A DNA stretch of 64,000 nt, from positions 128,001-192,000 of the forward strand of contig CP000069.1 of the NCBI GenBank assembly GCA_000002445.1. The letters run 5' to 3'. The stretch is from Trypanosoma brucei (taxonomy: Eukaryota). Position 1 is the stretch's first letter. Each line of letters starts with the position of its first letter. Made by a program: the position numbers and the translations under genes. Under the pieces are notes generated by a model, which searched no databases, was not told the DNA's origin, and saw nothing but the letters and a program-made list of their open reading frames with translations. Positions 12,301 through 54,420 of this stretch are shown here, piece by piece.

Positions 12301-13206
12301 TAGTGAAGTAGAAAGAAGATACGCATTGGCAGTGCGGTTGTCCTGTGCTACCTTCTTGATGAACCACGTGATGCTGCCATCCACCAGGGATGAAAACAGC
12401 AATATAGCCTGTGGGCGCGTAGCAACAAATTGTCTCCACCTGGTGTTCAAATCATCCTCAGAGATATTTTGATTCTCACTATCCTTCACAACGAACATTC
12501 CACACAACTCGCGACCCATCATTTCCAATATCTGCAGAGTAAACTCATACGGTCCCATACTGGCGGTGCTGCTCTTCACGTGCATCATACCTATTCGTGG
12601 GACACGGAGGTAAACAACAGCATAACGAATGAGGGCGAGGAGTTCAGCATTGGGTTCGACACTTATGAAATAAAGGTGAGGGTTCCAACCACGGACCTCA
12701 CTGGAGTGCGCAACGGGAGCGAGGGCAACAAGATCATTTTCCCTTAGTTTATTTCGGACATTTGCGACACGGTCACTACCCAGGGGCCCGAACACAACTA
12801 ATAACTTGTCTTTGCTTTGATCCATTCCCTCCTGAATCATGCCATCAACTGTCGCATTGGGTGATGAGGGACGGATGACAGATATTGTCGCATTAGAGCC
12901 CGTCTTCCAGCTGTGGGCACTCAGTGATGCGTCAAAGCCGGCATTCAGGGCGTTAATTTCACCTTCGGTATAAGCTGGATTATGCATCATGGATAGCACT
13001 TTTACCGTCACATTACCGTTTTCTGCGCACACAGGTGGCATCCACATGAGTAGCAAAGGCAACAAGTGTAGCAGTGATACAGCAGTAATGACAGGTGAGT
13101 GCTTGTACTTGCTGTAACGCCTTGCAGGGCTCCTTGCGGTAAGGTTCCGCCTGCAGTTTCCATGAGGGTACACACATCCTCTTCCACCACCTTCCTGCCA
13201 GCACAT
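9385..13206 (-). CDS. GRESAG4: receptor-type adenylate cyclase GRESAG4-like, full length (F1)
   Basis: 1273-aa frame from ATG (revcomp cat 13204-13206). The ORF-track start at 13227 is a GTG. It has a hydrophobic signal core (VITAVSLLHLLPLLLMWMPPVCA), a long extracellular region, one TM (IAGIGIGCIAGLIPFIALGVLL), then a class III cyclase domain with FTDIESSTALW / KTVGDSFMIASKSPF / RVGIHTG / DYYGRTPNMAARTES. Confidence 0.9.
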   Translation of the reverse strand: MCWQEGGGRGCVYPHGNCRRNLTARSPARRYSKYKHSPVITAVSLLHLLPLLLMWMPPVCAENGNVTVKVLSMMHNPAYTEGEINALNAGFDASLSAHSWKTGSNATISVIRPSSPNATVDGMIQEGMDQSKDKLLVVFGPLGSDRVANVRNKLRENDLVALAPVAHSSEVRGWNPHLYFISVEPNAELLALIRYAVVYLRVPRIGMMHVKSSTASMGPYEFTLQILEMMGRELCGMFVVKDSENQNISEDDLNTRWRQFVATRPQAILLFSSLVDGSITWFIKKVAQDNRTANAYLLSTSLQQGPLINMWREALALANRTFTPGQLITTGTVPLASDIRFSLIQHFQHDMDNYLDTKSDWKGFAKPDHYLEDDNAGEMMVYGWLAGEVLFQALNNAPQLTNRTSFMESLYEQRRYVIDDLVVGDFGGECNEAVALQGAMCNCNQGGSMVYMKSIMDGFRPAPLWEGHLTWGVSECSSANVHVGAPLSGLFLLLADNKIALRASRKWFLGAEVHGKEAENIDNRIFFHPLTVSSENVTQSLEQVQDNRDVSAVFGIMPGGLLDRKDLVFISPMTLRPRMKLFRRNVIHLLPVLAQQLYVLAVYLSNTSSRGVNALIRSEQAGEISSLLHKSLDTFGVPLDSSKTLGDGDPIASYLSGDGDVFTIGLTLTDVAAVARHLQAHRRARVFIPFNDLAMYYDEFVAAFNASKESIASSERLLFATSFPHWAEKDTKSDVVASFHRIVNESHWDPLTFLGFVTTRLLQVILPNMKKVNAELLADRIYTESNIKVDDMRFGPFNDVECVSGTSVSANECASNFGATNISVWSMARVLNSSVPILQRGMTPSMGYIISGGSRLTGSQIAGIGIGCIAGLIPFIALGVLLRITLRNARDNNLAPKEPTDPVTLIFTDIESSTALWAAHPELMPDAVATHHYLIRSLIGRYKCYEVKTVGDSFMIASKSPFAAVQLAQELQLCFLQHDWGTNAVDDSYQQFEQQRAEEDEKYTPPTARLDLKVYSRLWNGLRVRVGIHTGLCDIRHDEVTKGYDYYGRTPNMAARTESVANGGQVLMTGSTYLSLSAEEREQIDVTALGDVPLRGVPDPVEMYQLNAVPGRNFAALRLEREIEDEEDVGTGSSASESSFNECGLTATAQQVAGCIDALIGAFPVIQRQKMLATFCERWHVKKPPGVDAWNEASCRCVTRRIAAKVGCVMDFGTRNTSSSVTSLERGGSLFSPGGATVATVASSSNFSYVEGRRCTLHLIDLESVESASQYPS

Positions 13207-22618: not shown

Positions 22619-22978
22619 CAAGCGATAACTACATCAATGCCGGATCCATATTTCGTAATGAAATGTCAGTAGCAAAGAAAACAACGACACACATGAAATA
22701 CATATACGTGTTTGTGTGACACCATTACCTACCAGCGTGTCGGTTGTCCCTTTCTATCATTTGCTCGCAATTTACAGTGACATCATAAACGAGTCGCCTC
22801 TTGCTACCTTGACGTGCCTTCATTGCTTTTTAAGCATTGTTTTGGTTTTGTCGGGAACTTGTTATAGTATCCAACTGTCTGGAAGTGTAATCTTACTGAT
22901 TTCTATTTTACCTCTTTTGATATTCTTCCTTAGGACATAAGATTTCACACACGAAAAGTGTCACACATTACCGAAAAT
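22619..22978 (+). repeat. U5 5' flank of F2
   Basis: Matches 13207-13553 in reverse complement and 34046-34347 directly. Confidence 0.75.
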
Positions 22979-25900
22979 ATGAGCTGGCAGGAAGGTGGTG
23001 GAAGAGGATGTGTGTACCCTCATGGAAACTGCAGGCGGAACCTTACCGCAAGGAGCCCTGCAAGGCGTTACAGCAAGTACAAGCACTCACCTGTCATTAC
23101 TGCTGTATCACTGCTACACTTGTTGCCTTTGCTACTCATGTGGATGCCACCTGTGTGCGCGGAAGCGAGTACTGTGACGGTAAATGTGCTATCCATGATG
23201 CATAATCCAGCTTATACCGAAGGTGAAATTAACGCCATTAATGCCGGCTTTGACGCATCACTGAGTGCCCACAGCCGGAAGACGGGCTCTAATGCGACAA
23301 TATCTGTCATCCGTCACCCATCACCCAATGCGACAGTTGAGGAGATATTTCAGCATGGAATGAAACAAAGTGAAGGGAAGTTATTAGTTGTATTCGGGCC
23401 CCTGGGTAGTGACCGTGTCGCAAATGTCCGTGATAAACTGAAGGAACATGATCTTGTTGCCCTCGCTCCCGTTGCGCACTCCAGTGAGGTCCGTGGTTGG
23501 AACCCTCACCTCTATTTCATAAGTGTCGAACCCAATGCTGAACTCCTCGCCCTCATTCGTTATGCTGTTGTTTACCTCCGTGTCCCACGAATAGGTATGA
23601 TGCACGTGAAGAGCAGCACCGCCAGTATGGGACCGTATGAGTTTACTGTGCAGATATTGGAAATGATGGGTCGCGAGCTGTGTGGAATGTTCGTTGTGAA
23701 GGATAGTGAGAATCAAAATATCTCTGAGGATGATTTGAACGTCAGGTGGAGACAATTTGTTGCTACGCGCCCACAGGCTATATTGCTGTTTTCATCCCTG
23801 GGTAATACAGCAAAGTGGTTCATCAAGAAGGTAGCACAGGACAACCGCACTGCCAATGCGTATCTTCTTTCTACTTCACTACAGCAAAATTTTTTGATCA
23901 AGATGTGGCGTGAGGCATTGGCGTTAGCTAATCGTACATTCACTCCTGGACAGCTAATCACAACTGGAACAGTGCCGCTCGCCAGCGACATTCGGTTCTC
24001 ACTGATTCAGCACTTCCAGCATGACATGGACATCTACCTCAGGACAAACAATGACTGGAAGGGCTTTGCGAAACCCGATCACTACCTTGAGGACGACGGT
24101 TTAGGTGAGATGATGGTGTATGGGTGGCTTGCGGGAGAAGTTCTCTTCGAAGCTCTGAATAACGCTCCACAGCTGACGAACCGTAAATCATTCAGGGAAT
24201 CTCTGTACAAGCAGCGTCGCTACGTGATTGATGACCTTGTGGTTGGTGACTTTGGTGGTGAGTGCAATGAGGCCGTTGCATTACAGGGTGCCATGTGTGA
24301 ATGCAATCAAGGTGGCAGTATGGTATATATGAAGAGTATAATGGATGGCTTCCGACCAGCGCCTTTGTGGGAAGGACATCTAACGTGGGGTGTATCAGAG
24401 TGCTCGAGTGCCAATGTACATGTGGGTGCGCCATTGAGTGGCCTCTTTTTGCTTCTCGCAGATAATGAAATTGCATTACGTGCGAGCAGGAAGTGGTTTC
24501 TTGGTGCCGAGGTTCATGGCAAGGAAGCGGAGAATATTGACAATAGAATATTTTTCCATCCCCTAACAGTATCTTCAGAGAATGTGACGCAATCCCTTGA
24601 GCAAGTACAGGACAACAGGGATGTATCTGCAGTATTTGGTATCATGCCTGGAGGGCTTCTGGATCGAAAAGATTTAGTGTTCATCAGTCCTATGACACTT
24701 CGACCCCGCATGAAATTGTTTAGGAGAAACGTAATACACTTACTGCCTGTCCTTGCGCAGCAACTTTATGTGCTTGCTGTGTATCTCTCCAACACTTCTT
24801 CCAGAGGAGTAAATGCACTCATACGTAGTGAGCAAGCAGGGGAGATCAGTAGCCTGCTGTACAAGTCATTGGACACGTTTGGTGTGCCGCTTGATTCCAG
24901 CAAGACACTTGGTGATGGTGACCCGATATCGTCATATCTCTCGGGTGATGGAGATGTGTTTACTATTGGACTCACTCTCACTGACGTTGCTGCAGTTGCG
25001 CGGCACCTTCAGGCACACCGCAGGGCACGTGTATTCATTCCATTCAATGACCTTGCAATGTACTACGATGAGTTTGTAGCTGCGTTTAATGCGAGTAAAG
25101 AGTCTATTGCTAGCTCAGAGCGGCTCCTATTCGCGACGAGTTTTCCACACTGGGCGGAGAAGGACACGAAATCAGATGTGGTTGCGAGTTTCCATCGCAT
25201 TGTGAATGAATCGCATTGGGATCCACTAACGTTCTTAGGTTTTGTTACCACTCGGCTGCTTCAAGTGATTCTCCCGAATATGAAGAAAGTGAATGCAGAG
25301 CTGCTGGCAGACCGCATTTACACGGAGTCCAACATCAAAGTGGATGACATGCGATTTGGACCCTTCAATGATGTGGAATGTGTTTCTGGTACGAGTGTTT
25401 CGGCAAATGAGTGTGCCTCAAACTTTGGAGCCACAAACATTTCTGTATGGTCGATGGCGCGTGTGCTGAATTCAAGTGTGCCCATATTGCAACGCGGCAT
25501 GACACCGTCTATGGGGTTTTCCATTGCAGGAGGGAGTCGTCTCACAGGGTCACAGATAGCCGGCATAGGTATCGGGTGTATAGCCGGCTTGATACCTTTT
25601 ATTGCCCTTGGTGTGCTCCTACGCATCACCCTGCGGAATGCTCGTGATAACAATCTTGCGCCCAAGGAGCCAACGGACCCTGTGACACTAATATTTACTG
25701 ACATTGAGAGCAGCACTGCGTTGTGGGCTGCACACCCTGAGCTGATGCCCGATGCCGTTGCGACACATCACTATTTGATTCGTTCACTGATTGCGAGGTA
25801 TAAGTGCTACGAAGTCAAAACTGTAGGGGATTCGTTCATGATAGCGAGTAAGAGTCCTTTCGCTGCCGTCCAACTCGCACAGGAATTACAGCTGTGTTTC

Positions 25901-26797
25901 TTGCAACATGACTGGGGAACAAATGCAGTTGATGATTCTTACCAGCAGTTTGAGCAGCAGCGTGCGGAGGAGGACGAGAAGTACACACCGCCAACTGCGC
26001 GGTTGGACCTTAAAGTGTACAGTCGTTTGTGGAATGGCCTGCGTGTACGTGTTGGAATCCACACCGGGTTGTGCGATATCCGACACGATGAAGTGACGAA
26101 GGGATATGACTACTATGGGCGGACTCCAAACATGGCAGCAAGGACAGAGAGTGTAGCAAATGGTGGTCAGGTGCTGATAACAGGCTCAACATACCTGTCA
26201 CTGTCAGCTGAGGAGCGTGAGCAAATTGATGTCACTGCACTTGGTGGTGTGCCGCTACGTGGTGTGCCCGATCCTGTGGAAATGTACCAGTTGAATGCCG
26301 TGCCTGGCCGCAACTTTGCTGCATTACGGCTGGAACGTGAAATCGAGGATGAAGAAGATGTTGGAACAGGTAGTAGCGCTAGTGAGTCGAGCTTTAATGA
26401 GTGTGGTTTAACTGCCACCGCCCAACAGGTTGCTGGTTGCATTGATGCTCTCATTGGCGCATTTCCAGTTATCCAGCGACAGAAGATGCTTGCAACATTT
26501 TGTGAGCGTTGGCATGTTAAGAAGCCCCCAGGGGTGGATGCTTGGAATGAAGCCAGTTGTCGCTGTGTTACCCGTCGGATTGCTGCAAAGGTGGGCCGTG
26601 TTATGGATTTTGGAACGAGGAGCTCCTCCAGCAGTGTGACATCATTGGAAAGGGGTGGAAGTCTCTTTTCACCTGGAGGAGCTACTGTTGCAACGGTTGC
26701 TTCATCTTCAAACTTTTCCTATGTTGAGGGGCGACGCTGCACTCTGCACTTGATTGACCTGGAAAGTGTTGAGAGTGCCAGCCAATATCCTTCATGA
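22979..26797 (+). CDS. GRESAG4: receptor-type adenylate cyclase GRESAG4-like, full length (F2)
   Basis: 1272-aa frame from ATG 22979 (the ORF-track start 22958 is a GTG). Same domain order and cyclase motifs as F1. About 97-99% identical to F1/F3 outside a few mosaic patches. Confidence 0.9.
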   Translation: MSWQEGGGRGCVYPHGNCRRNLTARSPARRYSKYKHSPVITAVSLLHLLPLLLMWMPPVCAEASTVTVNVLSMMHNPAYTEGEINAINAGFDASLSAHSRKTGSNATISVIRHPSPNATVEEIFQHGMKQSEGKLLVVFGPLGSDRVANVRDKLKEHDLVALAPVAHSSEVRGWNPHLYFISVEPNAELLALIRYAVVYLRVPRIGMMHVKSSTASMGPYEFTVQILEMMGRELCGMFVVKDSENQNISEDDLNVRWRQFVATRPQAILLFSSLGNTAKWFIKKVAQDNRTANAYLLSTSLQQNFLIKMWREALALANRTFTPGQLITTGTVPLASDIRFSLIQHFQHDMDIYLRTNNDWKGFAKPDHYLEDDGLGEMMVYGWLAGEVLFEALNNAPQLTNRKSFRESLYKQRRYVIDDLVVGDFGGECNEAVALQGAMCECNQGGSMVYMKSIMDGFRPAPLWEGHLTWGVSECSSANVHVGAPLSGLFLLLADNEIALRASRKWFLGAEVHGKEAENIDNRIFFHPLTVSSENVTQSLEQVQDNRDVSAVFGIMPGGLLDRKDLVFISPMTLRPRMKLFRRNVIHLLPVLAQQLYVLAVYLSNTSSRGVNALIRSEQAGEISSLLYKSLDTFGVPLDSSKTLGDGDPISSYLSGDGDVFTIGLTLTDVAAVARHLQAHRRARVFIPFNDLAMYYDEFVAAFNASKESIASSERLLFATSFPHWAEKDTKSDVVASFHRIVNESHWDPLTFLGFVTTRLLQVILPNMKKVNAELLADRIYTESNIKVDDMRFGPFNDVECVSGTSVSANECASNFGATNISVWSMARVLNSSVPILQRGMTPSMGFSIAGGSRLTGSQIAGIGIGCIAGLIPFIALGVLLRITLRNARDNNLAPKEPTDPVTLIFTDIESSTALWAAHPELMPDAVATHHYLIRSLIARYKCYEVKTVGDSFMIASKSPFAAVQLAQELQLCFLQHDWGTNAVDDSYQQFEQQRAEEDEKYTPPTARLDLKVYSRLWNGLRVRVGIHTGLCDIRHDEVTKGYDYYGRTPNMAARTESVANGGQVLITGSTYLSLSAEEREQIDVTALGGVPLRGVPDPVEMYQLNAVPGRNFAALRLEREIEDEEDVGTGSSASESSFNECGLTATAQQVAGCIDALIGAFPVIQRQKMLATFCERWHVKKPPGVDAWNEASCRCVTRRIAAKVGRVMDFGTRSSSSSVTSLERGGSLFSPGGATVATVASSSNFSYVEGRRCTLHLIDLESVESASQYPS

Positions 26798-27949
26798 CAT
26801 TGATGTATGTTTTGTTGTTGTAAATGGATAATAATGTTTATATAATTTAAATTATTTTTAGATTAGTCTTGTATAAGGCATTTTTAACTCTTTGCTCCCC
26901 AACTTTTTGCGCATGCAATATTTCCCTCATATGTTGGGTGTTTAAATATTTTTATGCACAGGGATGCATTTTATTTCTGAAATGGGCACACCATTTTTTG
27001 ATTGTAATATATGAAAGTCGTTAATTTTCTGTTTAACGTAGTGAGGGATGTGTGCATCCACGCCACCATTAATGCTTAAATTTTCGTAAATAATATCTTA
27101 TTTAAATTTAAATTGCCGTCCGTGTGGGCCGTTGTCAAGTGAGGCGCTCCACCTCTAATGTGTTGTTAGGAGCTGTGTCCCTGCATTTAAAAATGTGTTT
27201 GATAATAAGGTGATGCCCATGAAGCGGAGGCTATAGCGAAGTAAAAGTGACCTCCTGTGCTTATCCCTCGCGTCTACCCTAATCTTTTTTTTTCATTCGG
27301 AGATGCTGGCTTGTAAGAGGTATCTCTTAATCACCTTGCTGCATGTAACTATTTGCAATATCTGATACATGTGTATAACTTCCTTTATATTTCTCTATGG
27401 TTGCTGAAACTTTCCTCATATTCTCTCGCACACTCTCTTTTACTCCTAGACAGTCAAGGAATATGAAACTGAGCAATGTCTGCCGTGATGTTGTGAGTTA
27501 AAATTTACAGTTTGAGTGTTAACTGTGACTGTTAGTGTGCTGTGTTTTTGTTAATGGCAATCCAGTTTATGATACTGTAATGTTCTATCTACACATTTAC
27601 CCTTATGCCTAGTGATGTTATATTTTTTTGTATCGGATACATGAATGATATGTGGGTGTATGGGGGAATGTGTGTTGAACTACTTTCTCGCTGTTATGGT
27701 TTGTGTAATGTTATCCACTACAGTAGTTCCCTTTCCCACGCTCTTACATATACATATGCAGTCTATTAATCTTGTACCAATACTTTGTTATTATGCCCTT
27801 TTTGTCCTGTAGTTTGAAAGTTGAATTACGTTGAGTTACTAGTATCACGGTTACCTCCATGCGTGAATTACATGCTAGAGATGGCGTAGTCACTTACGTA
27901 GTGTTTTTCTATGTTACTACAGCTGCTGGCTGAAGTATAGCTTGCAAAT
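26798..27949 (+). repeat. T spacer copy 2
   Basis: Near-identical to 38155-39319 and to the reverse complement of 8231-9384. Confidence 0.75.
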
Positions 27950-30900
27950 GGATTATTATGGGTAAGGGTATACAACATGTTATACAGTGACAAGATTTCA
28001 GCAAAGGTATTTGATCCTATTACTGCAGGCTTCAACGCATCTATTACCAACGGGAAGTCGCTTCCGTGTGTCAGTGTGGCAGTTGCATATGTTCCGTCTC
28101 TGGATGACTTTGGATACGCCATCTGTACAACCAATTACGGTGATGAGCTTGCTATTATACTGGAATCTGTGGGTGACAAAAATACTCTCAACTTAACCAA
28201 ATATTTCAATGAAAAGAATGTGTAGTTGATTTCTTACCTTTCACAGGATTCAGTAGGGTACACAGTTGGAATCCCAATTTATACCTCCTGGAAGCACCAC
28301 TCGCCGTTGAGATGCTTGCTCTTTTCCGTTATGCTATCACTCAGTTACGGTCACACCGACTGGATTTCATGTATTTGAAAGATGTTTCTTATGGTGATGA
28401 TGAGTATAAGCTTGCTGCGTAGTTGGCAACACGGATGAATCGCAAGTTGTTTAGTTGTTATTTTTTTTTTTTTTGCATTGAAGAGTCAACTTGATAAGGA
28501 ATCGGATAACAGGAGCTTCAGTGCGGAGTGTAATAAGGTTGCCGATACTGGACCTCAGGGAATGATTGTATTTGGTTCTCCAATCCCTGATATGAAGAGA
28601 TTCCCCATGAAATGATTATATGACCACAGGACAAGAGGCGAATATTTATTCATACACCCTCTGCACTCCAACACGCCATCAAGAACAAGTGGGCATATAA
28701 ATTGGGTAGAGACGAGTTTGTGGCTGCTAAGATAATAATAACTGGGGCTGACCTAATTACGAAGGGTGACACATACAAAGCTGTCAGGCGTTTCAGAGAT
28801 GATATGACTATGTTGTTAAAGGTTAATGGTAATAACTATAAGCGCACAAGGTGGGATATTAACGAAAATAACTTCACCGAGCAAGACGCTGAAGCTGAGC
28901 TGACATTGAACAGATGGGTTGCTGGAGAGGTATTGAAACAGGCACTGAGTTGTCACGAATAGCTAACTAGCAGGGGTGTATTTATGAAATCACTGTACAA
29001 TAAACGTCGTTATCCAATTGATAATATTGTGGTTGGTGACTTTGGTGGTGAGTGCCGTAATAAGGCGGGAGAGCGGGGTGTATCGTGTTTACGTAACCAA
29101 GGTGGGAGTGTGATGTGCATGAAGAAGGTGGAAAAGGATCTCCATCTACACCCTATGAAGGAAGCTATATTAACCCTTGGTTCATCTCGCTGTTATCGAG
29201 ACCTGCCACAGTTGTATGGCCCATTGAGTGGGGTCATGTTTAATATAACCGATGACCCAAAGGCACTGCGTACTGCATAGATGGTATACGATGGTGTCCC
29301 TCATGTTGTTGGCAAAGGTCAACTGGGTCTCTGATAGTTTCTTTTTACACTGACTATCCTCGAAATTTTACGAAGCTTCTGCAACTCTGTATAATGATGT
29401 TGAGAAACGAGTTGTAACTGCTGTGCTTGGTGTCGTGGATAATTCGTTACTACGGACGAAGGGTATGGCATTCATCGATCCTATAATACTCACATCACAA
29501 CCGAGTAACCCCAGAAGGAATGTGATCCACCTGTTACCAACAAATGAGCAGCAGTTATTTATGATAGTTGAGCATATTATACAAAATGGTGCAGGAAGGA
29601 TGCATTTCATTGTGTGTCGTGGTGGTGATACGAGAGGAATTAGGAATATGTTGCAAAAACACTTGACAACTTTAACACATCACTAAGCTTCTTTGTTGCG
29701 AGTGGTGAAGGTCCTATTTTGAGAGACAAGCTGTCAACTGCATGTGAGGTATTGGTTGTAGGTCTTATCCCATATAATATCCCCATAATCCTCTCTCACC
29801 CTAACAAACACCGTAATGCGCACGTCTTCGTCCTGTTCTTCGATGATGCACCAATCCACGGCGAACTCATGAATGCCTTCCATGAAGAGCCATTTTCTAG
29901 CCGCTTGCTATTCGCAACGAATCTGTCACATCGGAGGGATAAGATCACGGAGTCCAAAACAGTACGTGAGTTCCGCAAGATCGTGCAGAATGAGTCGAAG
30001 TGGAAGCCGTTGTCACTACTTGGGTCTGCCATCGCATACGCAATGGGAAGTGTCCTGCAATGTATGGGTCGTTTGGAGACAAGTGTACGAACGAAACTTG
30101 ACTTGAGGCGAAGCACTGTTGTCAACTGTGGTGCGATGCATATTTTTGTATGGTCGATGTCACATGTTCTAAACCCTTTTGTGTCCTCTGCGCTGTCGTC
30201 TGCCACACTGTCAGTGACCTATGATGAACCGAGATGGATCCAACAGATAACTGAGCAAATTGCCGCTATTGCAGTTATCTTCGTCGTAATCTTGGTGCCG
30301 CTTGTTACGGTTCTTGTGGTTGTTATATTAGCAACACACCGGAATGCTCGTGATAACAATCTTGCGCCCAAGGAACCAACTGACCCCGTGACACTAATAT
30401 TTACTGACATTGAGAGCAGCACTGCGTTGTGGGCTGCACACCCTGAACTGACGCCCGATGCCGTTGCAACACATCACTATTTGATTCGTTTACTGATTGG
30501 GAGGTATAAGTGCTACGAAGTCAAAACTGTAGGGGATTCGTTCATGATAGCGAGTAAGAGTCCTTTCGCTGCCGTCCAACTCGCACAGGAACTGCAGCTG
30601 CGTTTCTTGCATCATGACTGGGGAACAAATGCACTTGATGAGTCCTACCAGCAGTTTGAGCAGCAGCGTGCGGAGGAGGACGAGAAGTACACACCGCCAA
30701 CTGCGCGGTTGGACCCTAAAGTGTACAGTCGTTTGTGGAATGGCCTGCGTGTACGTGTTGGAATCCACACCGGGTTATGCGACATCCGACACGATGAAGT
30801 GACGAAGGGATATGACTACTATGGGCGGACCCCAAACATGGCAGCAAGGACGGAGAGTGTAGCAAATGGTGGTCAGGTGCTGATAACAGGCTCAACATAC

Positions 30901-31443
30901 CTGTCACTGTCGGCTGAGGAGCGTGAGCAAATTGATGTCACTGCACTTGGTGATGTTGCACTTCGTGGCGTGAATGATCATGTGGAAATGTACCAGTTGA
31001 ATGCCGTGCCTGGCCGCAACTTTGCTGCATTACGGCTGGATCGCGAACTCTTTGATGAAGACGAGGATGGCACGACAACCTCCACCAGCGACCACAGTTC
31101 TTCACGTGCCGAGCTGAGTGAATCAGCTTAGATATTGAACTCACTGCAGTCTGTTTTCCGAACTTTTAAAGCAGCGCAACGGGGGAATCTTCTGGCGTCG
31201 CTTTGTGAGCGTTGGCGTGTGCCTCTTCCCCGTGAAGCCGCATTCGAGTGGGATGACGCCTACTGTGAGGAAGTGGTGCGTCGCATTGCAGTTAAGGTTG
31301 GGCGTGTCGCTAACCGTAGCGCTCAAAGTGGAAGCAGTGAAGCTTCTGTGAGTACTGAAGAGGGCTCAATCATAATTGTTCCATTCGTTGGTTCACATTT
31401 CAGAGAAGGCCACTTTGGGTGTCCGCTTCCGTCGTTACACTAG
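27950..31443 (+). pseudogene. P2: degenerate divergent adenylate cyclase paralog; catalytic frame additionally cut by an in-frame TAG at 31129-31131
   Basis: Same ordered fragment ORFs as P1/P3/P4 (27977-28225, 28702-28962, 28984-29280, 29423-29686), then the 470-aa frame 29719-31131. A 3-nt indel relative to P3 (gcacaatcga to gcttaga) creates the TAG. The tail frame 31135-31443 continues in register. Confidence 0.75.
29719..31131 (+). CDS. TM + cyclase catalytic domain frame of P2 (470 codons, C-terminal tail lost to premature stop)
   Basis: Motifs FTDIESSTALW, KTVGDSFMIA, GIHTG, DYYGRTPNMAARTES. Carries the F-like patch QVLITGSTYLSLS where the other P copies have THEVYMS. Confidence 0.5.
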   Translation: MRDKLSTACEVLVVGLIPYNIPIILSHPNKHRNAHVFVLFFDDAPIHGELMNAFHEEPFSSRLLFATNLSHRRDKITESKTVREFRKIVQNESKWKPLSLLGSAIAYAMGSVLQCMGRLETSVRTKLDLRRSTVVNCGAMHIFVWSMSHVLNPFVSSALSSATLSVTYDEPRWIQQITEQIAAIAVIFVVILVPLVTVLVVVILATHRNARDNNLAPKEPTDPVTLIFTDIESSTALWAAHPELTPDAVATHHYLIRLLIGRYKCYEVKTVGDSFMIASKSPFAAVQLAQELQLRFLHHDWGTNALDESYQQFEQQRAEEDEKYTPPTARLDPKVYSRLWNGLRVRVGIHTGLCDIRHDEVTKGYDYYGRTPNMAARTESVANGGQVLITGSTYLSLSAEEREQIDVTALGDVALRGVNDHVEMYQLNAVPGRNFAALRLDRELFDEDEDGTTTSTSDHSSSRAELSESA

Positions 31444-34045
31444 TGGTACTGTTGCACGTCATAAAGCGTACAAATCTCTTAGTTTTACTCGGCGGAAAAG
31501 TTAATTAGCATACCGATTGTAGTAGTTGTTAGTGAATTTTAACGTAGTCTCGGTAGGGTTTGTCTTTTGTATCTATTTTTATCTTTTGCCATCTATTTAT
31601 TATTACATTTTTTACATTCTATTTTTGGTGGCTGCTGCCTCTGCATTAAAGCACATACTAATCTTAAGAGGGAACATGCCCTCTGTTAGATTACACGTGC
31701 GTTGTCTTTCAAGACACTGAATTAACACATGCATGTGTTTTGCCGTGTCAGCGCCGGTTGGTTTCTTACTGTTCCAAATCCGACCCTTATGGAAGACAGG
31801 ACGGCTCAACATTTCTTCTAATTTAACCAAAACGTTTTTGTTCTGTGAGTAATCACAAAACGGGATTAGCTATGTACTTTCCCTAAGGGCTCTCTTTTTT
31901 ATTTGTGTCCTTGCCATTTGAGGCTTTAAGAAAAGTAAGGTGAAACATTTCTTTTTCAACACGTCTGTCCTTAAGCGTGCGAGTGCATGACTATTTTTTT
32001 TAAACATTCCACCTCTCACGCCCAATCCCGCAGCCTTTTGGGTACAAAACTGTGTTTCCGTGTGTGTCTGCGTCACGTTTTTCTTTTTGAATCCACTTAA
32101 TGCTAGCGGTGTCTTTAAATATTTTTTCATAATGAGTGTTATGTTGCATGTGTGTTTGTATGTGTTGGGTGTTATGTGGGCTGTTGTATCTCTCTTCGGA
32201 TATACAACCCTTATCACCCTCTGCATTGCTGATGTTACATGTTGTTTCACCAGTTGCATGCTTTCTTTCCCTTCACTCATTTGTGTTGCCGTAAGGATTT
32301 AAGGTATGTGATTGCCTCCATTCCCTCCAGAGTGTGATGTCGATGCATGGGCTTAGTTATGCACTGAAACCCGCGTTGCCTCGCAGTATAACAAAGTTCC
32401 TTCACCATCACAGTTATTGCAGCTTATACTAATTATAGTATTGTGAGGGAGTTTTGTAACACGTTCACTCTGTTAATATTGCTGAGCCTATAATATCCTT
32501 CTGTTATTTACAACACTGTTTGGACACCCGAGGGGAGTGCAGAAATGCCGCTCCTTTATAGGGACAAACCTCATTTATCCGTATTTTGTGGTAATTCAAG
32601 ACTGAACCCTTGACGTTTTAACTGTGTGATGAGGAGCTACGACGAGTTGTGGCGGGAGGGAGCGTCTACGTCGCTGCAGTGTGTAACCTCAACTGAGCAT
32701 TTGGCATAACCTCTACATGCTTCCCTTTACATCATGTGTGTTTGCGTGCATGGGCTCTGATTGTTACTTGCGCATATCTGCCGCCCTCACTTGGGGCTTT
32801 TCCCCCCATGCAGGAGTGTACGCACTGGCAGCCGCTTTGGAGTATCAAAAATACTGCTACGTGCTGAAGATATTATTTGGGAAGGGAACAAATGGAGGGA
32901 AAGACTGTCGACCTTCAGGGGGAAAGGATAAACTCACCTGAATCGCAGCGGAACTCGTGCGGCTGCAGGCATCCAACCTTTTTCCCTCAAGGGCAATTGT
33001 TATCCCTGAGCGGGTTGTTTTATTAATTTTCCAGCCCTGTATGGCCGGAGTGCGTGTGGTCGCGATGTTTATGTAACTCCTTTTGTTACATCACTTTCCT
33101 TCTTTTGTAAACCCCCGTAGTCGCCGGACGCCTCGTGCCGCATGCGGGCCCGATTAATTTTTTGGTTTGGGAATGAGATTGGAGGTACAAACTCTGATGA
33201 GGCCCACTGGCTGATCGCTGCTGCGTTGCTTAGATGCGTTTTTATTATTCCTTACTTCTTTCCAACGCTACGTGGAGAAGGTGTGGTGACGGTGGCAGCA
33301 ACTGTTGGAAGTGCGAAAAAGAGGGCTCAATCATTTCAAAGTGGAAAGGGGCCCATTACCCGGAATTGAAAACTCATCTGATCGCGAACGGCGTTTGGGT
33401 TGCGACCAGGAAATGAAATTTGTGTTACGGTCCAAATACGAAACTTGTTGGGTGGACCCAAGGAAAGAAATAAAATGGATAAATACATGCTCTCTGCTGC
33501 ATGAGACCCGGAATATGAGGAAAATGGTGCGAATGGATGTGGAGGGTGTGTCTAACCGGATGAGTGAGTGACGACGCAACAACACGAAGATGAATGAAGG
33601 AAAAGGGAGGAGTGACAATGCATCCCAAAAGGCAGATGATTGATGTCATAAGAGGGGACCAAGTGTTTCCGCATGATTGCGGCGTCTGCAAGTAAAGTAG
33701 GGTACAAAGGAGAAAAAAAAAGAGAAAGCGGAACTGGATGAGATTCGGTTCTTCCGTCGCGCATGTTCTTACGCCCTTCTTCCACTGCATGTGCTATGCG
33801 ACATTCGTGCCCGAGGGGAAACTTTTCCTGTCTGCAAAGCGCCTTTAAGAAGTATATGAGAGGAACAACCAGCCAAGCAGCCACACAAAAGGCGAAGGAC
33901 ACAACAGAAATTATTAAGAGCCGAGACGCATTAGCCGAGGTAAACGCTGGCGGAAACAAAACAACAAACAAGTGACTGCGGCACTGAAATAAGAAACAAT
34001 CCAAACTCTTGCCCCACATCACACTTAAATACTTCCTTGCAGGAA
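31444..34045 (+). repeat. S spacer copy 2
   Basis: Reverse complement of 2112-4735; same internal blocks. Confidence 0.8.
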
Positions 34046-34347
34046 AGAAGCAGCAACGCACATGAAATACATATACGTGTTTGTGTGACACCATTACCTA
34101 CCAGCGTGTCGGTTGTCCCTTTCTATCATTTGCTCGCAATTTACAGTGACATCATAAACGAGTCGCCTCTTGCTACCTTGACGTGCCTTCATTGCTTTTT
34201 AAGCATTGTTTTGGTTTTGTCGGGAACTTGTTATAGCATCCAACTGTCTGGAAGTGTAATCTTACTGATTTCTATTTTCCCTCTTTTGATATTCTTCCTT
34301 AGGACATAAGATTTCACACACGAAAAGTGTCACACATTACCGAAAAT
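34046..34347 (+). repeat. U5 5' flank of F3
   Basis: Same flank as the other U5 copies. Confidence 0.75.
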
Positions 34348-37300
34348 ATGAGTTGGCAGGAAGGTGGTGGAAGAGGATGTGTGTGCCCTCATGGAAACTG
34401 CAGGCGGAACCTTACCGCAAGGAGCCCTGCAAGGCGTTACAGCATGTACAAGCACTCACCTGTCATTACTGCTGTATCACTGCTACACTTGTTGCCTTTG
34501 CTACTCATGTGGATGCCACCTGTGTGCGCAGAAAACGGTAATGTGACGGTAAAAGTGCTATCCATGATGTACAGCCTCGGTTTCACCACTCCTGAAGTTA
34601 ACGCCATTAATGCCGGCTTTGACGCATCACTGAGTGCCCACAGCTGGAAGACGGGCTCCGGTGCGACAATATCTGTCATCCGTCCCCCATCACCCAATGC
34701 GACAATCGAGGACATATTTCAGCAGGGGGTGAAACAAAGCAAAGACGAGTTATTAGTTGTATTCGGGCCCCTGGGTACTAATCACGTCTCGTGGGTCAGT
34801 GATAAACTAAAGGAACATGATCTTGTTGCCCTAGCTCCCGTTGCGTACTCCAGTGAGGTCCGTGGTTGGAACCCTCACCTTTATTTCATAAGTGTCGAAC
34901 CCAATGCTGAACTCCTCGCCCTCATTCGTTATGCTGTTGTTTACCTCCGTGTCCCACGAATAGGTATGATGCACGTGAAGAGCAGCACCGCCAGTATGGG
35001 ACCGTATGAGTTTACTGTGCAGATATTGGAAATGATGGGTCGCCATTTATGTGGAGTGTTCGTTGTGAAGGAGAGTGAGAATCAAAATATCTCTGAGGAT
35101 GATTTGAACACCAGGTGGAGACAATTTGTTGCTACGCGCCCACAGGCTATATTGTTGTTTTCATCCCTGGGTAATACAGCAAAGTGGTTCATCAAGAAGG
35201 TAGCACAGGACAACCGCACTGCCAATGCGTATCTTCTTTCTACTTCACTACAGCAAAATTTTTTGATCAACATGTGGCGTGAGGCATTGGTGTTAGCTAA
35301 TCGTACATTCACTCCTGGACAGCTAATCACAACTGGAACAGTGCCGCTCGCTAACGATACTCGGTTCTCACTGATTCAGCGCTTCCAGCGTGATGTGAAC
35401 AACTACCTGGATACAAACACTGACTGGAAGGGCTTTGCGAAACCCGATCACTACCTTGAGGACGACAACGCAGGTGAGATGATGGTGTATGGGTGGCTTG
35501 CAGGAGAAGTTCTCTTCCAGGCTCTGAATAACGCTCCACAGCTGACGAACCGTACGTCATTCATGGAATCTCTGTACAAGCAGCGTCGCTACGTGATTGA
35601 TGACCTTGTGGTTGGTGACTTTGGTGGTGAGTGCAATGAGGCCGTTGCATTACAGGGTGCCATGTGTAAATGCAATCAAGGTGGCAGTATGGTATATATG
35701 AAGAGTATAATGGATGGCTTCCGACCAGCGCCTTTGTGGGAGGGACATCTAACGTGGGGTGTATCAGAGTGCTCGAGTGCCAATGTGCATGTGGGTGCGC
35801 CATTGAGTGGCCTCTTTTTGCTTCTCGCAGATAATAAAATTGCATTACGTGCGAGCAGGAAGTGGTTCCTTGGTGCCGAGGTTCATGGCAAGGAAGCGGA
35901 GAATATTGACAATAGAATATTTTTCCATCCCCTAACAGTATCTTCAGAGAATGTGACGCAATCCCTTGAGCAAGTACAGGACAACAGGGATGTATCTGCA
36001 GTATTTGGTATCATGCCTGGAGGGCTTCTGGATCGAAAAGATTTAGTGTTCATCAGTCCTATGACACTTCGACCCCGCATGAAATTGTTTAGGAGAAACG
36101 TAATACACTTACTGCCTGTCCTTGCGCAGCAACTTTATGTGCTTGCTGTGTATCTCTCCAACACTTCTTCCAGAGGAGTAAATGCACTCATACGTAGTGA
36201 GCAAGCAGGGGAGATCAGTAGCCTGCTGTACAAGTCATTGGTTACGTTCGGTGTGCCGCTTGATTCCAGCAAGACACTTGGTGATGGTGACCCGATATCG
36301 TCATATCTCTCGGGTAATGGAGATGTGTTTACTATTGGACTCACTCTCACTGACGTTGCTGCGGTTGCGCGGCACCTTCAGACCCACCGCAGGGCGCGTG
36401 TATTCATTCCATTCAATGACCTTGCAATGTACTACGATGAGTTTGTAGCTGCGTTTAATGCGAGTAAAGAGTCTATTGCTAGCTCAGAGCGGCTCCTATT
36501 CGCGACGAGTTTTCCACACTGGGCAAAGAAGAACACGAAATCAGATGTGGTTGCAAGTTTCCATCGCATTGTGAATGAATCGCATTGGGATCCACTAACG
36601 TTCTTAGGTTTTGTTACCACTCGGCTGCTTCAAGTGATTCTCCCGAATATGAGGAAGGTGAATGCAGAGCTGCTGGCAGACCGCATTTACACGGAGTCCA
36701 ACATCAAAGTGGATGACATGCGATTTGGACCCTTCAGTGATGTGGAATGTGTTTCTGGTACGAGTGTTTCGGCAAATGAGTGTGCCTCAAACTTTGGAGC
36801 CACAAACATTTCTGTATGGTCGATGGCGCGTGTGCTGAATTCAAGTGTGCCCATATTGCAACGCGGCATGACACCGTCTATGGATTATATCATTTCAGGA
36901 GGGAGTCGTCTCACAGGGTCACAGATAGCCGGCATAGGTATTGGGTGTATAGCCGGCTTGATACCTTTTATTGCCCTTGGTGTGCTCCTACGCATCACCC
37001 TGCGGAATGCTCGTGATAACAATCTTGCACCCAAGGAACCAACTGACCCCGTGACACTAATATTTACTGACATTGAGAGCAGCACTGCGTTGTGGGCTGC
37101 ACACCCTGAGCTGATGCCCGATGCCGTTGCGACACATCACTATTTGATTCGTTCACTGATTGGGAGGTATAAGTGCTACGAAGTCAAAACTGTAGGGGAT
37201 TCGTTCATGATAGCGAGTAAGAGTCCTTTCGCTGCCGTCCAACTCGCACAGGAACTACAGCTGTGTTTCTTGCAGCATGACTGGGGAACAAATGCAGTTG

Positions 37301-38154
37301 ATGATTCTTACCAGCAGTTTGAGCAGCAGCGTGCGGAGGAGGACGAGATGTACACACCGCCAACTGCGCGGTTGGACCCTAAAGTGTACAGTCGTTTGTG
37401 GAATGGCCTGCGTGTACGTGTTGGAATCCACACCGGGTTATGCGACATCCGACACGATGAAGTGACGAAGGGATATGACTACTATGGGCGGACTCCAAAC
37501 ATGGCAGCAAGGACGGAGAGTGTAGCAAATGGTGGTCAGGTGCTGATAACAGGCTCAACATACCTGTCACTGTCGGCTGAGGAGCGTGAGCAAATTGATG
37601 TCACTGCACTTGGTGGTGTGCCGCTACGTGGTGTGCCCGATCCTGTGGAAATGTACCAGTTGAATGCCGTGCCTGGTCGCAACTTTGCTGCATTACGGCT
37701 GGAACGTGAAATCGAGGATGAAGAAGATGTTGGAACAGGTAGTAGCGCTAGTGAGTCGAGCTTTAATGAGTGTGGTTTAACTGCCACCGCTCAACAGGTT
37801 GCTGGTTGTATTGATGCCCTCATTGGCGCATTTCCAGTTATCCAGCGACAGAAGATGCTTGCAACATTTTGTGAGCGTTGGCATGTTAAGAAGCCCCCAG
37901 GGGTGGATGCTTGGAATGAAGCCAGTTGTCGCTGTGTTACCCGTCGGATTGCTGCAAAGGTGGGTTGTGTTATGGATTTTGGAACGAGGAGCTCCTCCAG
38001 CAGTGTGACATCATTGGAAAGGGGTGGAAGTCTCTTTTCACCTGGAGGAGCTACTGTTGCAACGGTTGCTTCATCTTCAAACTTTTCCTATGTTGAGGGA
38101 AAACGTGGCGCCACTGATTTGATTGACCTGGAAAGTGTTGGTAGTACCTGTTAA
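34348..38154 (+). CDS. GRESAG4: receptor-type adenylate cyclase GRESAG4-like, full length (F3)
   Basis: 1268-aa frame from ATG 34348 (the ORF-track start 34327 is a GTG). Same architecture and motifs. The C-terminal tail differs from F1/F2 (ends ...YVEGKRGATDLIDLESVGSTC, earlier stop). Confidence 0.9.
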   Translation: MSWQEGGGRGCVCPHGNCRRNLTARSPARRYSMYKHSPVITAVSLLHLLPLLLMWMPPVCAENGNVTVKVLSMMYSLGFTTPEVNAINAGFDASLSAHSWKTGSGATISVIRPPSPNATIEDIFQQGVKQSKDELLVVFGPLGTNHVSWVSDKLKEHDLVALAPVAYSSEVRGWNPHLYFISVEPNAELLALIRYAVVYLRVPRIGMMHVKSSTASMGPYEFTVQILEMMGRHLCGVFVVKESENQNISEDDLNTRWRQFVATRPQAILLFSSLGNTAKWFIKKVAQDNRTANAYLLSTSLQQNFLINMWREALVLANRTFTPGQLITTGTVPLANDTRFSLIQRFQRDVNNYLDTNTDWKGFAKPDHYLEDDNAGEMMVYGWLAGEVLFQALNNAPQLTNRTSFMESLYKQRRYVIDDLVVGDFGGECNEAVALQGAMCKCNQGGSMVYMKSIMDGFRPAPLWEGHLTWGVSECSSANVHVGAPLSGLFLLLADNKIALRASRKWFLGAEVHGKEAENIDNRIFFHPLTVSSENVTQSLEQVQDNRDVSAVFGIMPGGLLDRKDLVFISPMTLRPRMKLFRRNVIHLLPVLAQQLYVLAVYLSNTSSRGVNALIRSEQAGEISSLLYKSLVTFGVPLDSSKTLGDGDPISSYLSGNGDVFTIGLTLTDVAAVARHLQTHRRARVFIPFNDLAMYYDEFVAAFNASKESIASSERLLFATSFPHWAKKNTKSDVVASFHRIVNESHWDPLTFLGFVTTRLLQVILPNMRKVNAELLADRIYTESNIKVDDMRFGPFSDVECVSGTSVSANECASNFGATNISVWSMARVLNSSVPILQRGMTPSMDYIISGGSRLTGSQIAGIGIGCIAGLIPFIALGVLLRITLRNARDNNLAPKEPTDPVTLIFTDIESSTALWAAHPELMPDAVATHHYLIRSLIGRYKCYEVKTVGDSFMIASKSPFAAVQLAQELQLCFLQHDWGTNAVDDSYQQFEQQRAEEDEMYTPPTARLDPKVYSRLWNGLRVRVGIHTGLCDIRHDEVTKGYDYYGRTPNMAARTESVANGGQVLITGSTYLSLSAEEREQIDVTALGGVPLRGVPDPVEMYQLNAVPGRNFAALRLEREIEDEEDVGTGSSASESSFNECGLTATAQQVAGCIDALIGAFPVIQRQKMLATFCERWHVKKPPGVDAWNEASCRCVTRRIAAKVGCVMDFGTRSSSSSVTSLERGGSLFSPGGATVATVASSSNFSYVEGKRGATDLIDLESVGSTC

Positions 38155-54148: not shown

Positions 54149-54420
54149 TGTTAGTATTACTTGCTTGTCAGTCTATGGGCCGCGCGTGAAAGAAAACAGG
54201 TTAGGAAGAGTAAGCACAAAACAAGGTGAACAAGGAAGATGATCACATCGCAATTGACCTGCATTGTAGAAACACCGCCCCGTTAAAATACGCGGAGAGT
54301 GATGAAGATATTGATCTGCTACACGAAATAGAACGCTACAAGGGAAAACATAGTTGGAAGGTGAGAGTGGCAGTAAATACTAAGAGCATGGAGAAAAAAC
54401 ACATAAAAAAATATAATGTA

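What the first reader, a model, noticed from the sequence alone, without database searches (positions are those of the whole stretch)
22979..26797. Full-length cyclases differ from each other mainly in short mosaic patches of the N-terminal extracellular lobe
F1, F2 and F3 are ~97-99% identical overall but show clustered, reticulate differences in residues ~67-160. Examples are ENGNVTVKVLSMMHNPAYTEGEINALNAG (F1) vs EASTVTVNVLSMMHNPAYTEGEINAINAG (F2) vs ENGNVTVKVLSMMYSLGFTTPEVNAINAG (F3), and DGMIQEGMDQSKDK vs EEIFQHGMKQSEGK vs EDIFQQGVKQSKDE. Smaller patches occur around 280-300 and 355-380. The patchwork sharing (F1 resembles F3 at one patch and F2 at another) looks like segmental gene conversion concentrated in the presumed ligand-binding (periplasmic-binding-protein-like) lobe. 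That fits diversification of what the receptors sense.
Basis: partly seen in the sequence, partly recalled or inferred. Interest (0 to 1): 0.5.

Follow-up and report, generated by a model that had tools for sequence, protein, structure and literature searches.

The report
Mosaic sensor domain in trypanosome cyclases
Four near-identical copies of a Trypanosoma brucei surface receptor (adenylate cyclase) gene differ mainly by short swapped sequence patches in their outermost sensor domain; this is real gene-conversion shuffling, but it has already been described for this gene family.

Summary
The region is F2, one copy of a T. brucei GRESAG4-type receptor adenylate cyclase. It sits in a palindromic array of 11.4-kb units, each holding one intact cyclase (F) and one frameshifted cyclase pseudogene (P).

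- **Clustering:** of 204 variable sites among F1-F3, 126 lie in the first 1260 nt (p=6e-17). They form dense clusters of 5-40 nt.
- **Reticulation:** adding the partial copy F0 gives three mutually incompatible 2|2 splits (22/20/4 sites). Hudson-Kaplan Rm is 15, and PHI-like and 3SEQ-like tests are significant. Tracts are shorter than about 50-130 nt.
- **Origin of the patches:** synonymous divergence is also about 5-fold higher in the patches. They are therefore old or imported sequence, not recent point mutation.
- **Location in the protein:** the patches lie in the first LIVBP-like Venus-flytrap domain, mostly in loops after strands and first helical turns. They also toggle N-glycosylation sites.

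Gene-conversion mosaics in T. brucei GRESAG4 arrays, and selection on their LBP-like ectodomain, were published in 2007-2010. The finding is therefore solid but already known. The ligand-sensing interpretation stays plausible and unproven.

The parts
22979..26797 (+). F2, intact GRESAG4-type receptor adenylate cyclase (1272 aa from the ATG). It has a leader/signal, VFT1 (aa ~61-445), VFT2 (aa 484-847), a TM segment, a class III cyclase domain (aa 896-1106) and a C-terminal tail.
   Evidence: Pfam hits PF25495, PF25493, PF00211 and a weak PF13458. The catalytic domain matches T. brucei GRESAG4.1 (1FX2) at E=3e-133.
23161..23458 (+). Main hypervariable zone of F2 (CDS nt 183-480, aa 61-160). It covers the mature N-terminus, the beta1-alpha1 loop, alpha2, and the beta3-alpha3 loop with alpha3 of VFT1 lobe I.
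   Evidence: 21.7 variable sites per 100 nt against a background of ~2.3. Clusters reach 15 differences in 28 nt. The splits F0F2|F1F3 and F0F3|F1F2 alternate.
23675..24238 (+). Second variable zone of F2 (CDS nt ~697-1260, aa ~233-420). It contains lobe II loops and helices of VFT1, a 1-codon indel (aa 275) and patches at aa 304-308, 336-365, 374-375 and 386-412.
   Evidence: 9.8 variable sites per 100 nt in nt 811-1260; alignments.
26719..27200 (+). Additional mosaic hot spot covering the last ~25 codons and the proximal 3'UTR of the F gene.
   Evidence: 19.9 variable or gapped columns per 100 nt. F3 differs at the C-terminus and F1 differs across the 3'UTR.
9385..13206 (-). F1, intact paralogue and mirror partner of F2 in the palindrome.
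34348..38154 (+). F3, intact paralogue in the next tandem unit.
1..1819 (-). F0, the N-terminal ~606 codons of a fourth copy, cut by the window edge.
28222..31383 (+). P2, a frameshifted and N-terminally truncated divergent cyclase pseudogene that alternates with the F genes. P1 is 4796-7952(-), P3 is 39590-42749(+) and P4 is 55767-58930(-). Its catalytic block is 95-98% identical to F, with sharp edges.
   Evidence: tblastn shows frame changes in every P copy. Sliding identity is, and the F3-identical patch at 30880-30912 is.
22671..34050 (+). One 11.4-kb tandem unit (F + P + spacers). Background variation between units is 1-4 per 100 nt.
   Evidence: Self-BLAST; unit alignment.

Best explanation
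The region is one copy (F2) of a T. brucei GRESAG4-type receptor adenylate cyclase. It lies in a palindromic tandem array of 11.4-kb units.

Long-range concerted evolution or recent duplication keeps whole units about 97-99% identical, spacers and the second flytrap domain included. The catalytic domain is kept nearly identical even with the neighbouring pseudogene.

The membrane-distal flytrap domain (VFT1) instead carries islands of old, strongly diverged sequence. These are 5-40 nt long and up to ~50% different locally, at synonymous and non-synonymous sites alike. Very short-tract gene conversion (shorter than about 50-130 nt) exchanges them among array members and probably other family members, so each copy holds a different combination.

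Selection, diversifying or at least relaxed, keeps this diversity from being homogenised. Each copy therefore encodes an ectodomain with a different set of cleft-side loops, exposed helices and glycan sites on a constant signalling core.

Shown here: the clustering, the reticulation, the short tracts, the raised dS, the fold, and the bias in secondary-structure location. Inferred: that selection maintains the patches, and that they change ligand or partner specificity.
For: - **Clustering and runs:**
- **Reticulation:** three incompatible splits, Rm=15 and PHI-like p=0.0008; 3SEQ-like p<=5e-5.
- **Synonymous divergence:** dS is 0.11-0.28 in nt 181-480 against 0.02-0.05 downstream. dN/dS is 0.4-1.05 there against 0.06-0.4 in most downstream segments and 0.17-0.42 for nt 1261-3738 as a whole.
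- **Background:** spacers and pseudogene vary at only 1-4 per 100 nt.
- **Different histories along the unit:** F1 and F2 are closest in the CDS body, while U2 and U3 are closest in the 3'UTR and spacer.
- **Microconversion with an in-window source:** P2 30880-30912 equals F3. An F/P catalytic block is 95-98% identical with sharp edges.
- **Link to older family diversity:** alternative patch states match states in distant GRESAG4/ESAG4 subfamilies. Examples are the F0/F3 states Y75, W149, Y167, NDT336 and R345, and the F1 'QQGPLI' motif with its extra residue.
- **Structure:** the AF2 model has pLDDT 78.7 and pTM 0.81. Its top Foldseek hits are LIV-binding proteins and class C GPCR flytraps.
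- **Position of variable residues:** 4% of strand positions vary, 25% of post-strand loops, 33% of first helical turns, and 12-13% on the opposite face.
- **Published precedent:** the same behaviour is reported for T. brucei GRESAG4 arrays in PMC1855330 (Fig. 4) and PMC2854126 (Table 2).
Against: - No donor was found for the many private patches, in the window or in the protein databases. The closest relatives found are 43-55% identical. Import and retention of old diversity therefore cannot be separated.
- dN/dS never clearly exceeds 1.
- A non-coding 3'UTR segment is as mosaic as the sensor domain. Local conversion hot spots or relaxed constraint could explain part of the pattern without selection on sensing.
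- The cleft-side enrichment rests on secondary-structure classes from a model, not on 3D distances. The sites are not independent, because they occur in patches.
- Single-site 'runs' may be homoplasy. Counting only multi-site runs, at least 4 breakpoints remain.
Confidence: 0.8

Rival explanations
1. The patches are antigenic or surface variation rather than ligand-specificity variation. The ectodomain is exposed to host antibodies. Shuffling exposed helices and glycan sites diversifies epitopes, while the receptor function, if any, is unchanged.
For: - Five of about nine N-glycosylation sequons in VFT1 are polymorphic among copies: N65, N105, N129, N336 and N401.
- 25% of mid-helix positions vary. 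The densest patches include helices alpha2 and alpha3, which are solvent-exposed in this fold.
- Variation starts just after the hydrophobic leader, at the predicted mature N-terminus.
- The literature has proposed immune evasion as a driver of ectodomain diversification (PMC7719234, citing Salmon 2012; PMC6027212).
Against: - Variable residues are enriched on the cleft-facing side and coincide with the three lobe I loops that contact ligand in LIV-binding proteins (the contact residues come from my own knowledge).
- All copies lie in ordinary polycistronic units and are presumably co-expressed. That gives little scope for sequential antigenic variation.
- The life-cycle stage at which these copies are expressed is unknown.
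Confidence: 0.3
2. The pattern is passive and involves no active diversification. The array descends from older diverged paralogues that long-tract conversion is homogenising. VFT1 patches and the 3'UTR are leftover islands where conversion tracts ended or where constraint is weak. The reticulate pattern is a by-product of incomplete homogenisation.
For: - dS is raised together with dN in the patches, and dN/dS is at most ~1.
- A non-coding 3'UTR hot spot has similar density.
- F0/F3 patch states match distant paralogues, as expected for retained ancestral sequence.
- Another cyclase pair, in T. b. gambiense chr 5 (L001), has divergent blocks at quite different positions: aa 430-550, 851-900 and 1100-1200.
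Against: - Islands only 4-30 nt long, flanked by identical sequence and occurring in different combinations in four copies, need many short exchange events, not just missing long ones.
- Strands are almost invariant (4%) while adjacent loops vary. Constraint is therefore structured, not simply absent.
- Spacers and the pseudogene, which should be least constrained, are homogenised to 1-4 differences per 100 nt.
Confidence: 0.3
3. The patchwork is an assembly or polishing artefact. In near-identical tandem and inverted repeats, mis-assigned reads can produce chimeric consensus sequences.
For: The locus is highly repetitive, with 11.4-kb units at 96-98% identity and an inverted arm. No read data are available here.
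Against: - All three full-length copies keep intact reading frames of 1268-1273 codons (counted from the ATG), and the one indel is in frame.
- Patch boundaries are sharp, and private patches are unique sequences that must exist in the reads.
- The same kind of mosaic is published for clone-based T. brucei assemblies (PMC1855330, PMC2854126).
Confidence: 0.05

Closest known systems
Gene-conversion mosaics in T. brucei GRESAG4 tandem arrays (Jackson 2007, PMC1855330; Jackson et al. 2010, PMC2854126)
   Same: The gene family, the organism and the phenomenon are the same. All five GRESAG4 arrays in PMC2854126 Table 2 give PHI p<0.001 with multiple breakpoints. Fig. 4 of PMC1855330 shows conversion within a cyclase array, including events that span the stop codon and the 3'UTR, as seen here at 26719-27200.
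   Different: Those papers report breakpoints per array. They do not resolve 5-40-nt patches or place them on the flytrap fold. I could not establish whether this particular array, next to IGP34, is one of those analysed.
Positive selection on the LBP-like extracellular region of T. brucei cyclase paralogues (Emes & Yang 2008, PMC2386149)
   Same: That paper also places paralogue differences mainly in the N-terminal LIVBP-like ectodomain with a conserved catalytic domain. It offers the same interpretation of diversified ligand sensing.
   Different: That study attributes the pattern to positive selection on codons. Here dS is raised as well and dN/dS is at most ~1, so recombination or import of old sequence explains the clustering better than point-mutation selection does.
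Motif shuffling by microconversion in MHC peptide-binding regions
   Same: Short tracts of tens of nt reshuffle old polymorphic motifs in a binding domain, while the rest of the gene is homogeneous. Synonymous diversity is raised in the same segments. This comparison rests on my own knowledge.
   Different: The protein fold and the biology differ. Here the exchange is among tandem paralogues rather than mainly among alleles, and no ligand is known.
Segmental gene conversion forming VSG mosaics in T. brucei
   Same: The organism is the same, short-tract conversion acts among family members, and pseudogenes can take part (PMC2854126).
   Different: VSG mosaics form somatically during infection in a monoallelically expressed site. 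The cyclase mosaics are germline and evolutionary, in ordinary polycistronic units.

Membership tests
Trypanosomatid receptor-type adenylate cyclase (ESAG4/GRESAG4) | Class III cyclase catalytic domain closely related to GRESAG4.1 and GRESAG4.3 | tested here: met
   PF00211 at E=1.8e-44. 1FX2 matches at E=1.7e-135 with ~87% identity over 233 aa, and 1FX4 at E=5e-129.
Trypanosomatid receptor-type adenylate cyclase (ESAG4/GRESAG4) | Large ectodomain with two PBP-like (Venus flytrap) domains, a single TM helix, then the cyclase domain | tested here: met
   PF25495 covers aa 187-330 and PF25493 covers aa 484-847. A hydrophobic segment at aa ~862-885 precedes the catalytic domain. The VFT1 model has a LIVBP fold.
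Trypanosomatid receptor-type adenylate cyclase (ESAG4/GRESAG4) | Located in a T. brucei genome outside VSG expression sites (GRESAG4 rather than ESAG4) | tested here: inconclusive
   Both published IGP34 qPCR primers match exactly, twice each, in the neighbouring 316-aa C-type-lectin genes (PMC4497807). No VSG or other ESAG was seen among the large ORFs. The chromosome assignment (chr 6 near Tb927.6.380) is inferred, not verified.
Gene-conversion mosaic (recombinant paralogues) | Incompatible site patterns (four-gamete violations) beyond chance, clustered along the sequence | tested here: met
   Splits of 22/20/4 sites, Rm=15, PHI-like p=0.0008; 3SEQ-like p<=5e-5.
Gene-conversion mosaic (recombinant paralogues) | Identifiable donor and recipient for a tract | tested here: inconclusive
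   This is met for shared patches among F0-F3 and for the P2 patch at 30880-30912, which is identical to F3. It is not met for the private patches: there is no in-window donor and no close relatives in the searchable databases.
Diversifying (positive) selection on a ligand-binding site | dN/dS significantly above 1 at the variable sites | tested here: not met
   Pairwise Nei-Gojobori dN/dS is 0.37-1.05 in nt 181-480 and 0.51-0.77 in nt 811-1260. Codon-site models that account for recombination were not run, because there are too few sequences.
Diversifying (positive) selection on a ligand-binding site | Variable residues line the ligand cleft in 3D | tested here: inconclusive
   Only secondary-structure classes could be used. 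Cleft-side loops plus first helical turns vary at 29% against 13% on the distal side (OR 2.7, p=0.006, sites not independent). The ligand is unknown.

The most novel reading that the evidence does not exclude
The array may work as a combinatorial cassette system for the first flytrap domain. Microconversion would independently reassort a small set of old alternative cassettes at two kinds of site. One is the three canonical ligand-contact loops of lobe I: beta1-alpha1, beta3-alpha3 and the loop after beta4. The other is helices alpha2 and alpha3, which form the dimer interface in mGluR-type flytraps. Each copy would then differ both in what it binds and in which paralogue it can dimerise with. 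That would set which cyclases can be co-activated.
Probability: 0.12. Interest if true: 0.55.

Novelty: already known. Interest (0 to 1): 0.25.

Why it matters
No ligand is known for any of the roughly 80 T. brucei receptor cyclases, although they act in innate-immune suppression and in tsetse colonisation. Naturally occurring near-isogenic copies that differ only in a few defined VFT1 patches are ready-made chimeras. Swapping patches at aa 75-84, 144-157, 275-280 or 336-365 between F1, F2 and F3 would test whether these loops set ligand response, dimer partner or antibody recognition.

The analysis also adds a caution. Earlier 'positive selection' calls in this family may partly reflect short-tract conversion of old sequence, because synonymous divergence is raised in the same patches.

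The phenomenon itself, conversion mosaics in GRESAG4 arrays with a variable LBP-like ectodomain, is already published.

Tried and rejected
- **In-window donors:** I searched for each private patch with full-length and 12-mer matches and found none. The P pseudogenes are too diverged in their ectodomain part to donate (~30% aa identity).
- **Close relatives and alleles:** three word-indexed protein searches and one exhaustive HMMER search gave nothing above 43-55% identity. Exact-product look-ups of F2 found nothing. Donors outside the window could therefore not be tested.
- **T. b. gambiense chr 5 locus (L001):** its two cyclases are only ~58% identical to F at DNA level. They served only as an outgroup and comparison.
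- **Point-mutation positive selection:** rejected as the sole cause, because dS is raised about 5-fold in the patches and dN/dS is at most ~1.
- **Non-coding RNA or tRNA features:** none found.
- **Mapping variable sites in 3D:** model coordinates are not exposed, so only secondary-structure classes were used, plus a profile alignment to LIV-binding proteins.
- **Profile search with A2:** this was dominated by the catalytic domain of full-length homologues. I repeated it with a trimmed alignment, A3.
Full report
**What is there**

The window holds a repetitive cyclase locus. tblastn with F2 finds three intact copies and one partial copy of a ~1272-aa protein:
- F1 at 9385-13227(-)
- F2 at 22958-26797(+), with the ATG at 22979
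- F3 at 34327-38154(+)
- F0, the first 613 aa of a fourth copy, at 1-1840(-), cut by the window edge

Four divergent, frameshifted and N-terminally truncated cyclase pseudogenes (P1-P4) are also present.

Self-BLAST shows an 11.4-kb tandem unit made of F, P and spacers. The left arm (1-13570) is an inverted copy of 22619-36166 at 96.7% identity. The two arms flank a 9-kb ORF-poor spacer.

F2 carries the Pfam domains PF25495 and PF25493, which are the two PBP-like domains of trypanosome cyclases, and PF00211. Its catalytic domain is ~87% identical to T. brucei GRESAG4.1 (1FX2, E=1.7e-135).

The neighbouring 316-aa tandem genes have the IGP C-type-lectin domain. They contain both published IGP34 qPCR primers as exact matches (primers from PMC4497807). 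The window is therefore T. brucei. It is probably the chromosome 6 region near Tb927.6.380, but that assignment is an inference.

**Checking the observation**

At DNA level, F1-F3 differ at 204 sites. Of these, 126 lie in the first 1260 nt (p=6e-17). Site density per 100 nt is:

| Region | Variable sites per 100 nt |
|---|---|
| aa 61-160 | 21.7 |
| aa 271-420 | 9.8 |
| Leader, second PBP domain, TM and cyclase domain, most of the tail | 2.2-2.5 |

The variance/mean ratio in 30-nt bins is 3.8, against a permutation maximum of 1.5. The copy that is the odd one out comes in long runs: 67 runs against 127 expected, z=-9.7.

Local clusters are extreme. F3 has 15 differences in 28 nt at CDS nt 223-250. 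F0 and F3 share 11 differences in 21 nt at nt 431-451. F2 has 5 consecutive changed bases at nt 1123-1127.

Three sequences cannot show formal incompatibility, so I added F0. Over 1822 nt there are 46 informative sites. They split 22 (F0F3|F1F2), 20 (F0F2|F1F3) and 4 (F0F1|F2F3). These splits are mutually incompatible and occur in alternating runs.
- Hudson-Kaplan Rm is 15. Counting only multi-site runs, at least 4 breakpoints remain.
- The PHI-like permutation p is 0.0008.
- 3SEQ-like maximum-descent tests reach p<=5e-5.
- Flanking informative sites bound the tracts to less than about 50-130 nt.

The dominant split F0F3|F1F2 matches the mirror symmetry of the palindrome, with inner copies F1/F2 and outer copies F0/F3. 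The nearly as frequent F0F2|F1F3 split is the conflicting signal.

Two corrections apply. First, overall identity is 94.0-95.7% at protein level and 95.9-97.4% at DNA level, not 97-99%; only the region downstream of nt 1260 reaches 98-99%. Second, a hot spot of similar density covers the last ~25 codons and the proximal 3'UTR at 26719-27200 (19.9 per 100 nt). There F3 has a replaced C-terminus and F1 a divergent 3'UTR.

**What the patches are**

Across the whole 11.4-kb unit, spacers and the pseudogene vary at only 1-4 sites per 100 nt. The units are therefore young or homogenised.

In the patch zones both substitution classes are raised. dS is 0.11-0.28 in nt 181-480, against 0.02-0.05 downstream. 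dN/dS is 0.4-1.05 there, against 0.06-0.4 in most downstream segments and 0.17-0.42 for nt 1261-3738 as a whole.

Raised synonymous divergence excludes recent point-mutation selection on a homogeneous background. The patches are old or imported sequence.

Different segments of the unit also have different nearest neighbours. F1 and F2 are closest in the CDS body. U2 and U3 are closest in the 3'UTR and spacer.

Short-tract conversion can be seen directly elsewhere in the window. The F and P catalytic blocks are 95-98% identical between aa ~890-1112, with sharp drops to 35-70% on both sides. Inside that block, P2 30880-30912 is base-for-base F3-like ('GSTYL') where P1, P3 and P4 read 'HEVYM'.

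Private patches have no donor in the window. No close relatives could be retrieved from any searchable collection; the best hits are 43-55% identical (exact look-ups).

Alternative patch states do recur in distant family members. The F0/F3 states Y75, W149, Y167, N-D-T336 and R345 are the common state in other GRESAG4/ESAG4 subfamilies. F1's 'QQGPLI' motif and its extra residue at aa 275 match another T. brucei subfamily. This fits cassettes drawn or retained from older family diversity.

A second cyclase pair, in T. b. gambiense chr 5 (L001), is also blockwise mosaic. Its blocks lie at aa 430-550, 851-900 and 1100-1200. Mosaicism is thus general in the family, and its concentration in VFT1 is specific to this array.

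**Structure**

An AlphaFold2 model of F2 aa 55-470 has pLDDT 78.7 and pTM 0.81. It has the type I PBP fold. The top Foldseek hits are LivK/LivJ-type binding proteins and the flytrap domains of mGluR, T1R and GABA-B receptors.

| Context | Positions that vary |
|---|---|
| Strands | 4% |
| Loops after strands | 25% |
| First helical turns | 33% |
| Loops after helices | 13% |
| Last helical turns | 12% |
| Mid-helix | 25% |

The cleft-facing side is enriched over the far side (OR 2.7, p=0.006). That p-value is optimistic, because sites within a patch are not independent.

A family profile aligns 'GPLG(S/T)' after beta3 and 'APVA(H/Y)SS' after beta4 with the corresponding loops of LIV-binding proteins. 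From my own knowledge of LivJ, these loops and the beta1-alpha1 loop carry the ligand contacts (Tyr18; Leu77-Ser79; Ala100-Thr102). All three are variable here. This mapping is a lead, not a test.

Much variation also sits on exposed helices alpha2 and alpha3. Five N-glycosylation sequons are present in some copies and absent in others: N65, N105, N129, N336 and N401.

**Interpretation**

The best-supported account has three parts. Concerted evolution keeps the units and the signalling core uniform. Short-tract gene conversion reshuffles old, diverged cassettes in VFT1 and in the 3'UTR. Some form of selection or relaxed constraint preserves that diversity.

It could instead serve antigenic or glycan surface variation, as proposed in the literature (PMC7719234, PMC6027212). 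It could also be largely a passive remnant of incomplete homogenisation. dN/dS is not above 1, no ligand is known, and a non-coding segment behaves similarly. An assembly artefact is unlikely, given the intact frames and the unique private patches, but it cannot be excluded without reads.

**Comparison with what is known**

Jackson (2007, PMC1855330) documented gene conversion within T. brucei tandem arrays. Fig. 4 of that paper shows a cyclase array, with events spanning the start codon, the stop codon and the 3'UTR.

Jackson et al. (2010, PMC2854126, Table 2) found PHI p<0.001 and multiple breakpoints in all five GRESAG4 arrays tested, and described 'sequence mosaics'.

Emes & Yang (2008, PMC2386149) reported that variable or positively selected sites of cyclase paralogues concentrate in the LBP-like ectodomain. 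They proposed diversified ligand sensing.

What this analysis adds:
- nucleotide-level resolution of very short tracts
- the raised dS, which argues for recombination of old sequence rather than codon-level positive selection
- the placement of the patches on cleft-side loops and glycan sites
- the parallel 3'UTR hot spot

**Verdict**

Novelty: already known. Interest: 0.25.

Noticed in passing
1-13570 vs 22619-36166; spacer 13571-22618: The cyclase array is palindromic. The left arm is an inverted copy of the right arm at 96.7% identity. The two arms flank a ~9-kb spacer with no ORF over 140 aa, no tRNA and no Rfam hit. It looks like a divergent strand-switch region with arrays transcribed outward.
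   Followed up: partly
F2 25660-26320 vs P2 ~30340-31073 (also P1, P3, P4): The intact cyclases and the frameshifted P pseudogenes share a ~730-nt catalytic-domain block at 95-98% DNA identity. Their flanks are 35-70% identical, with sharp edges. This is a conversion tract between otherwise distant paralogues.
   Followed up: partly
30880-30912 (P2): P2 carries a short patch identical to F3, encoding 'GSTYL', where P1, P3 and P4 read 'HEVYM'. It is a microconversion with an identifiable in-window source.
   Followed up: yes
26719-27200 (and counterparts after F1 and F3); 38094-38154: The last ~25 codons and the first ~400 nt of the 3'UTR form a mosaic hot spot of similar density to the sensor domain. 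F3 has a replaced C-terminus, and F1 has a divergent 3'UTR. Because trypanosome expression is controlled through 3'UTRs, the copies may be regulated differently.
   Followed up: partly
51707-52657 and 53198-54148 (-): These are two tandem 316-aa genes with the IGP-family C-type-lectin domain, lying in a 1762-nt repeat that is 99.9% identical. Both published IGP34 qPCR primers match exactly. This identifies the organism as T. brucei and suggests the chromosome 6 IGP34 locus.
   Followed up: yes
54405-59304 (-): A lone, inverted copy of the P-pseudogene segment (P4) is 97-98.6% identical to the segments around P1-P3 but has no adjacent F gene. It is a further inverted segmental duplication in the locus.
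   Followed up: no
F copies, aa 65, 105, 129, 336, 401 (F2 coordinates ~23171-24183): N-glycosylation sequons in the first flytrap domain differ among copies. N65 is lost in F2 and N105 is lost in F3. N129 is present only in F0, N336 only in F0 and F3, and N401 is lost in F2.
   Followed up: partly
L001 10001-13624 and 15322-19032 (T. b. gambiense DAL972, FN554968.1): This tandem cyclase pair from another subfamily is identical over its first ~400 codons. It has blocks of ~50% divergence at aa 430-550, 851-900 and 1100-1200, and an ISG65/75 gene lies downstream. The mosaic is of the same kind but placed differently.
   Followed up: partly
46486-47343 (-): A 285-aa ORF with C2H2 zinc-finger matches lies between the cyclase array and the IGP34 genes.
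   Followed up: no
22979-23140 (F2 aa 1-54): All copies encode an unusually long, basic, cysteine-rich leader of ~40 aa (MSWQEGGGRGCVYPHGNCRRNLTARSPARRYS...) before the hydrophobic signal-like segment. It is almost invariant, with 4 variable nt in 180. Variation starts right after that segment (the '...PPVCA|E' junction, where signal cleavage would be expected).
   Followed up: no
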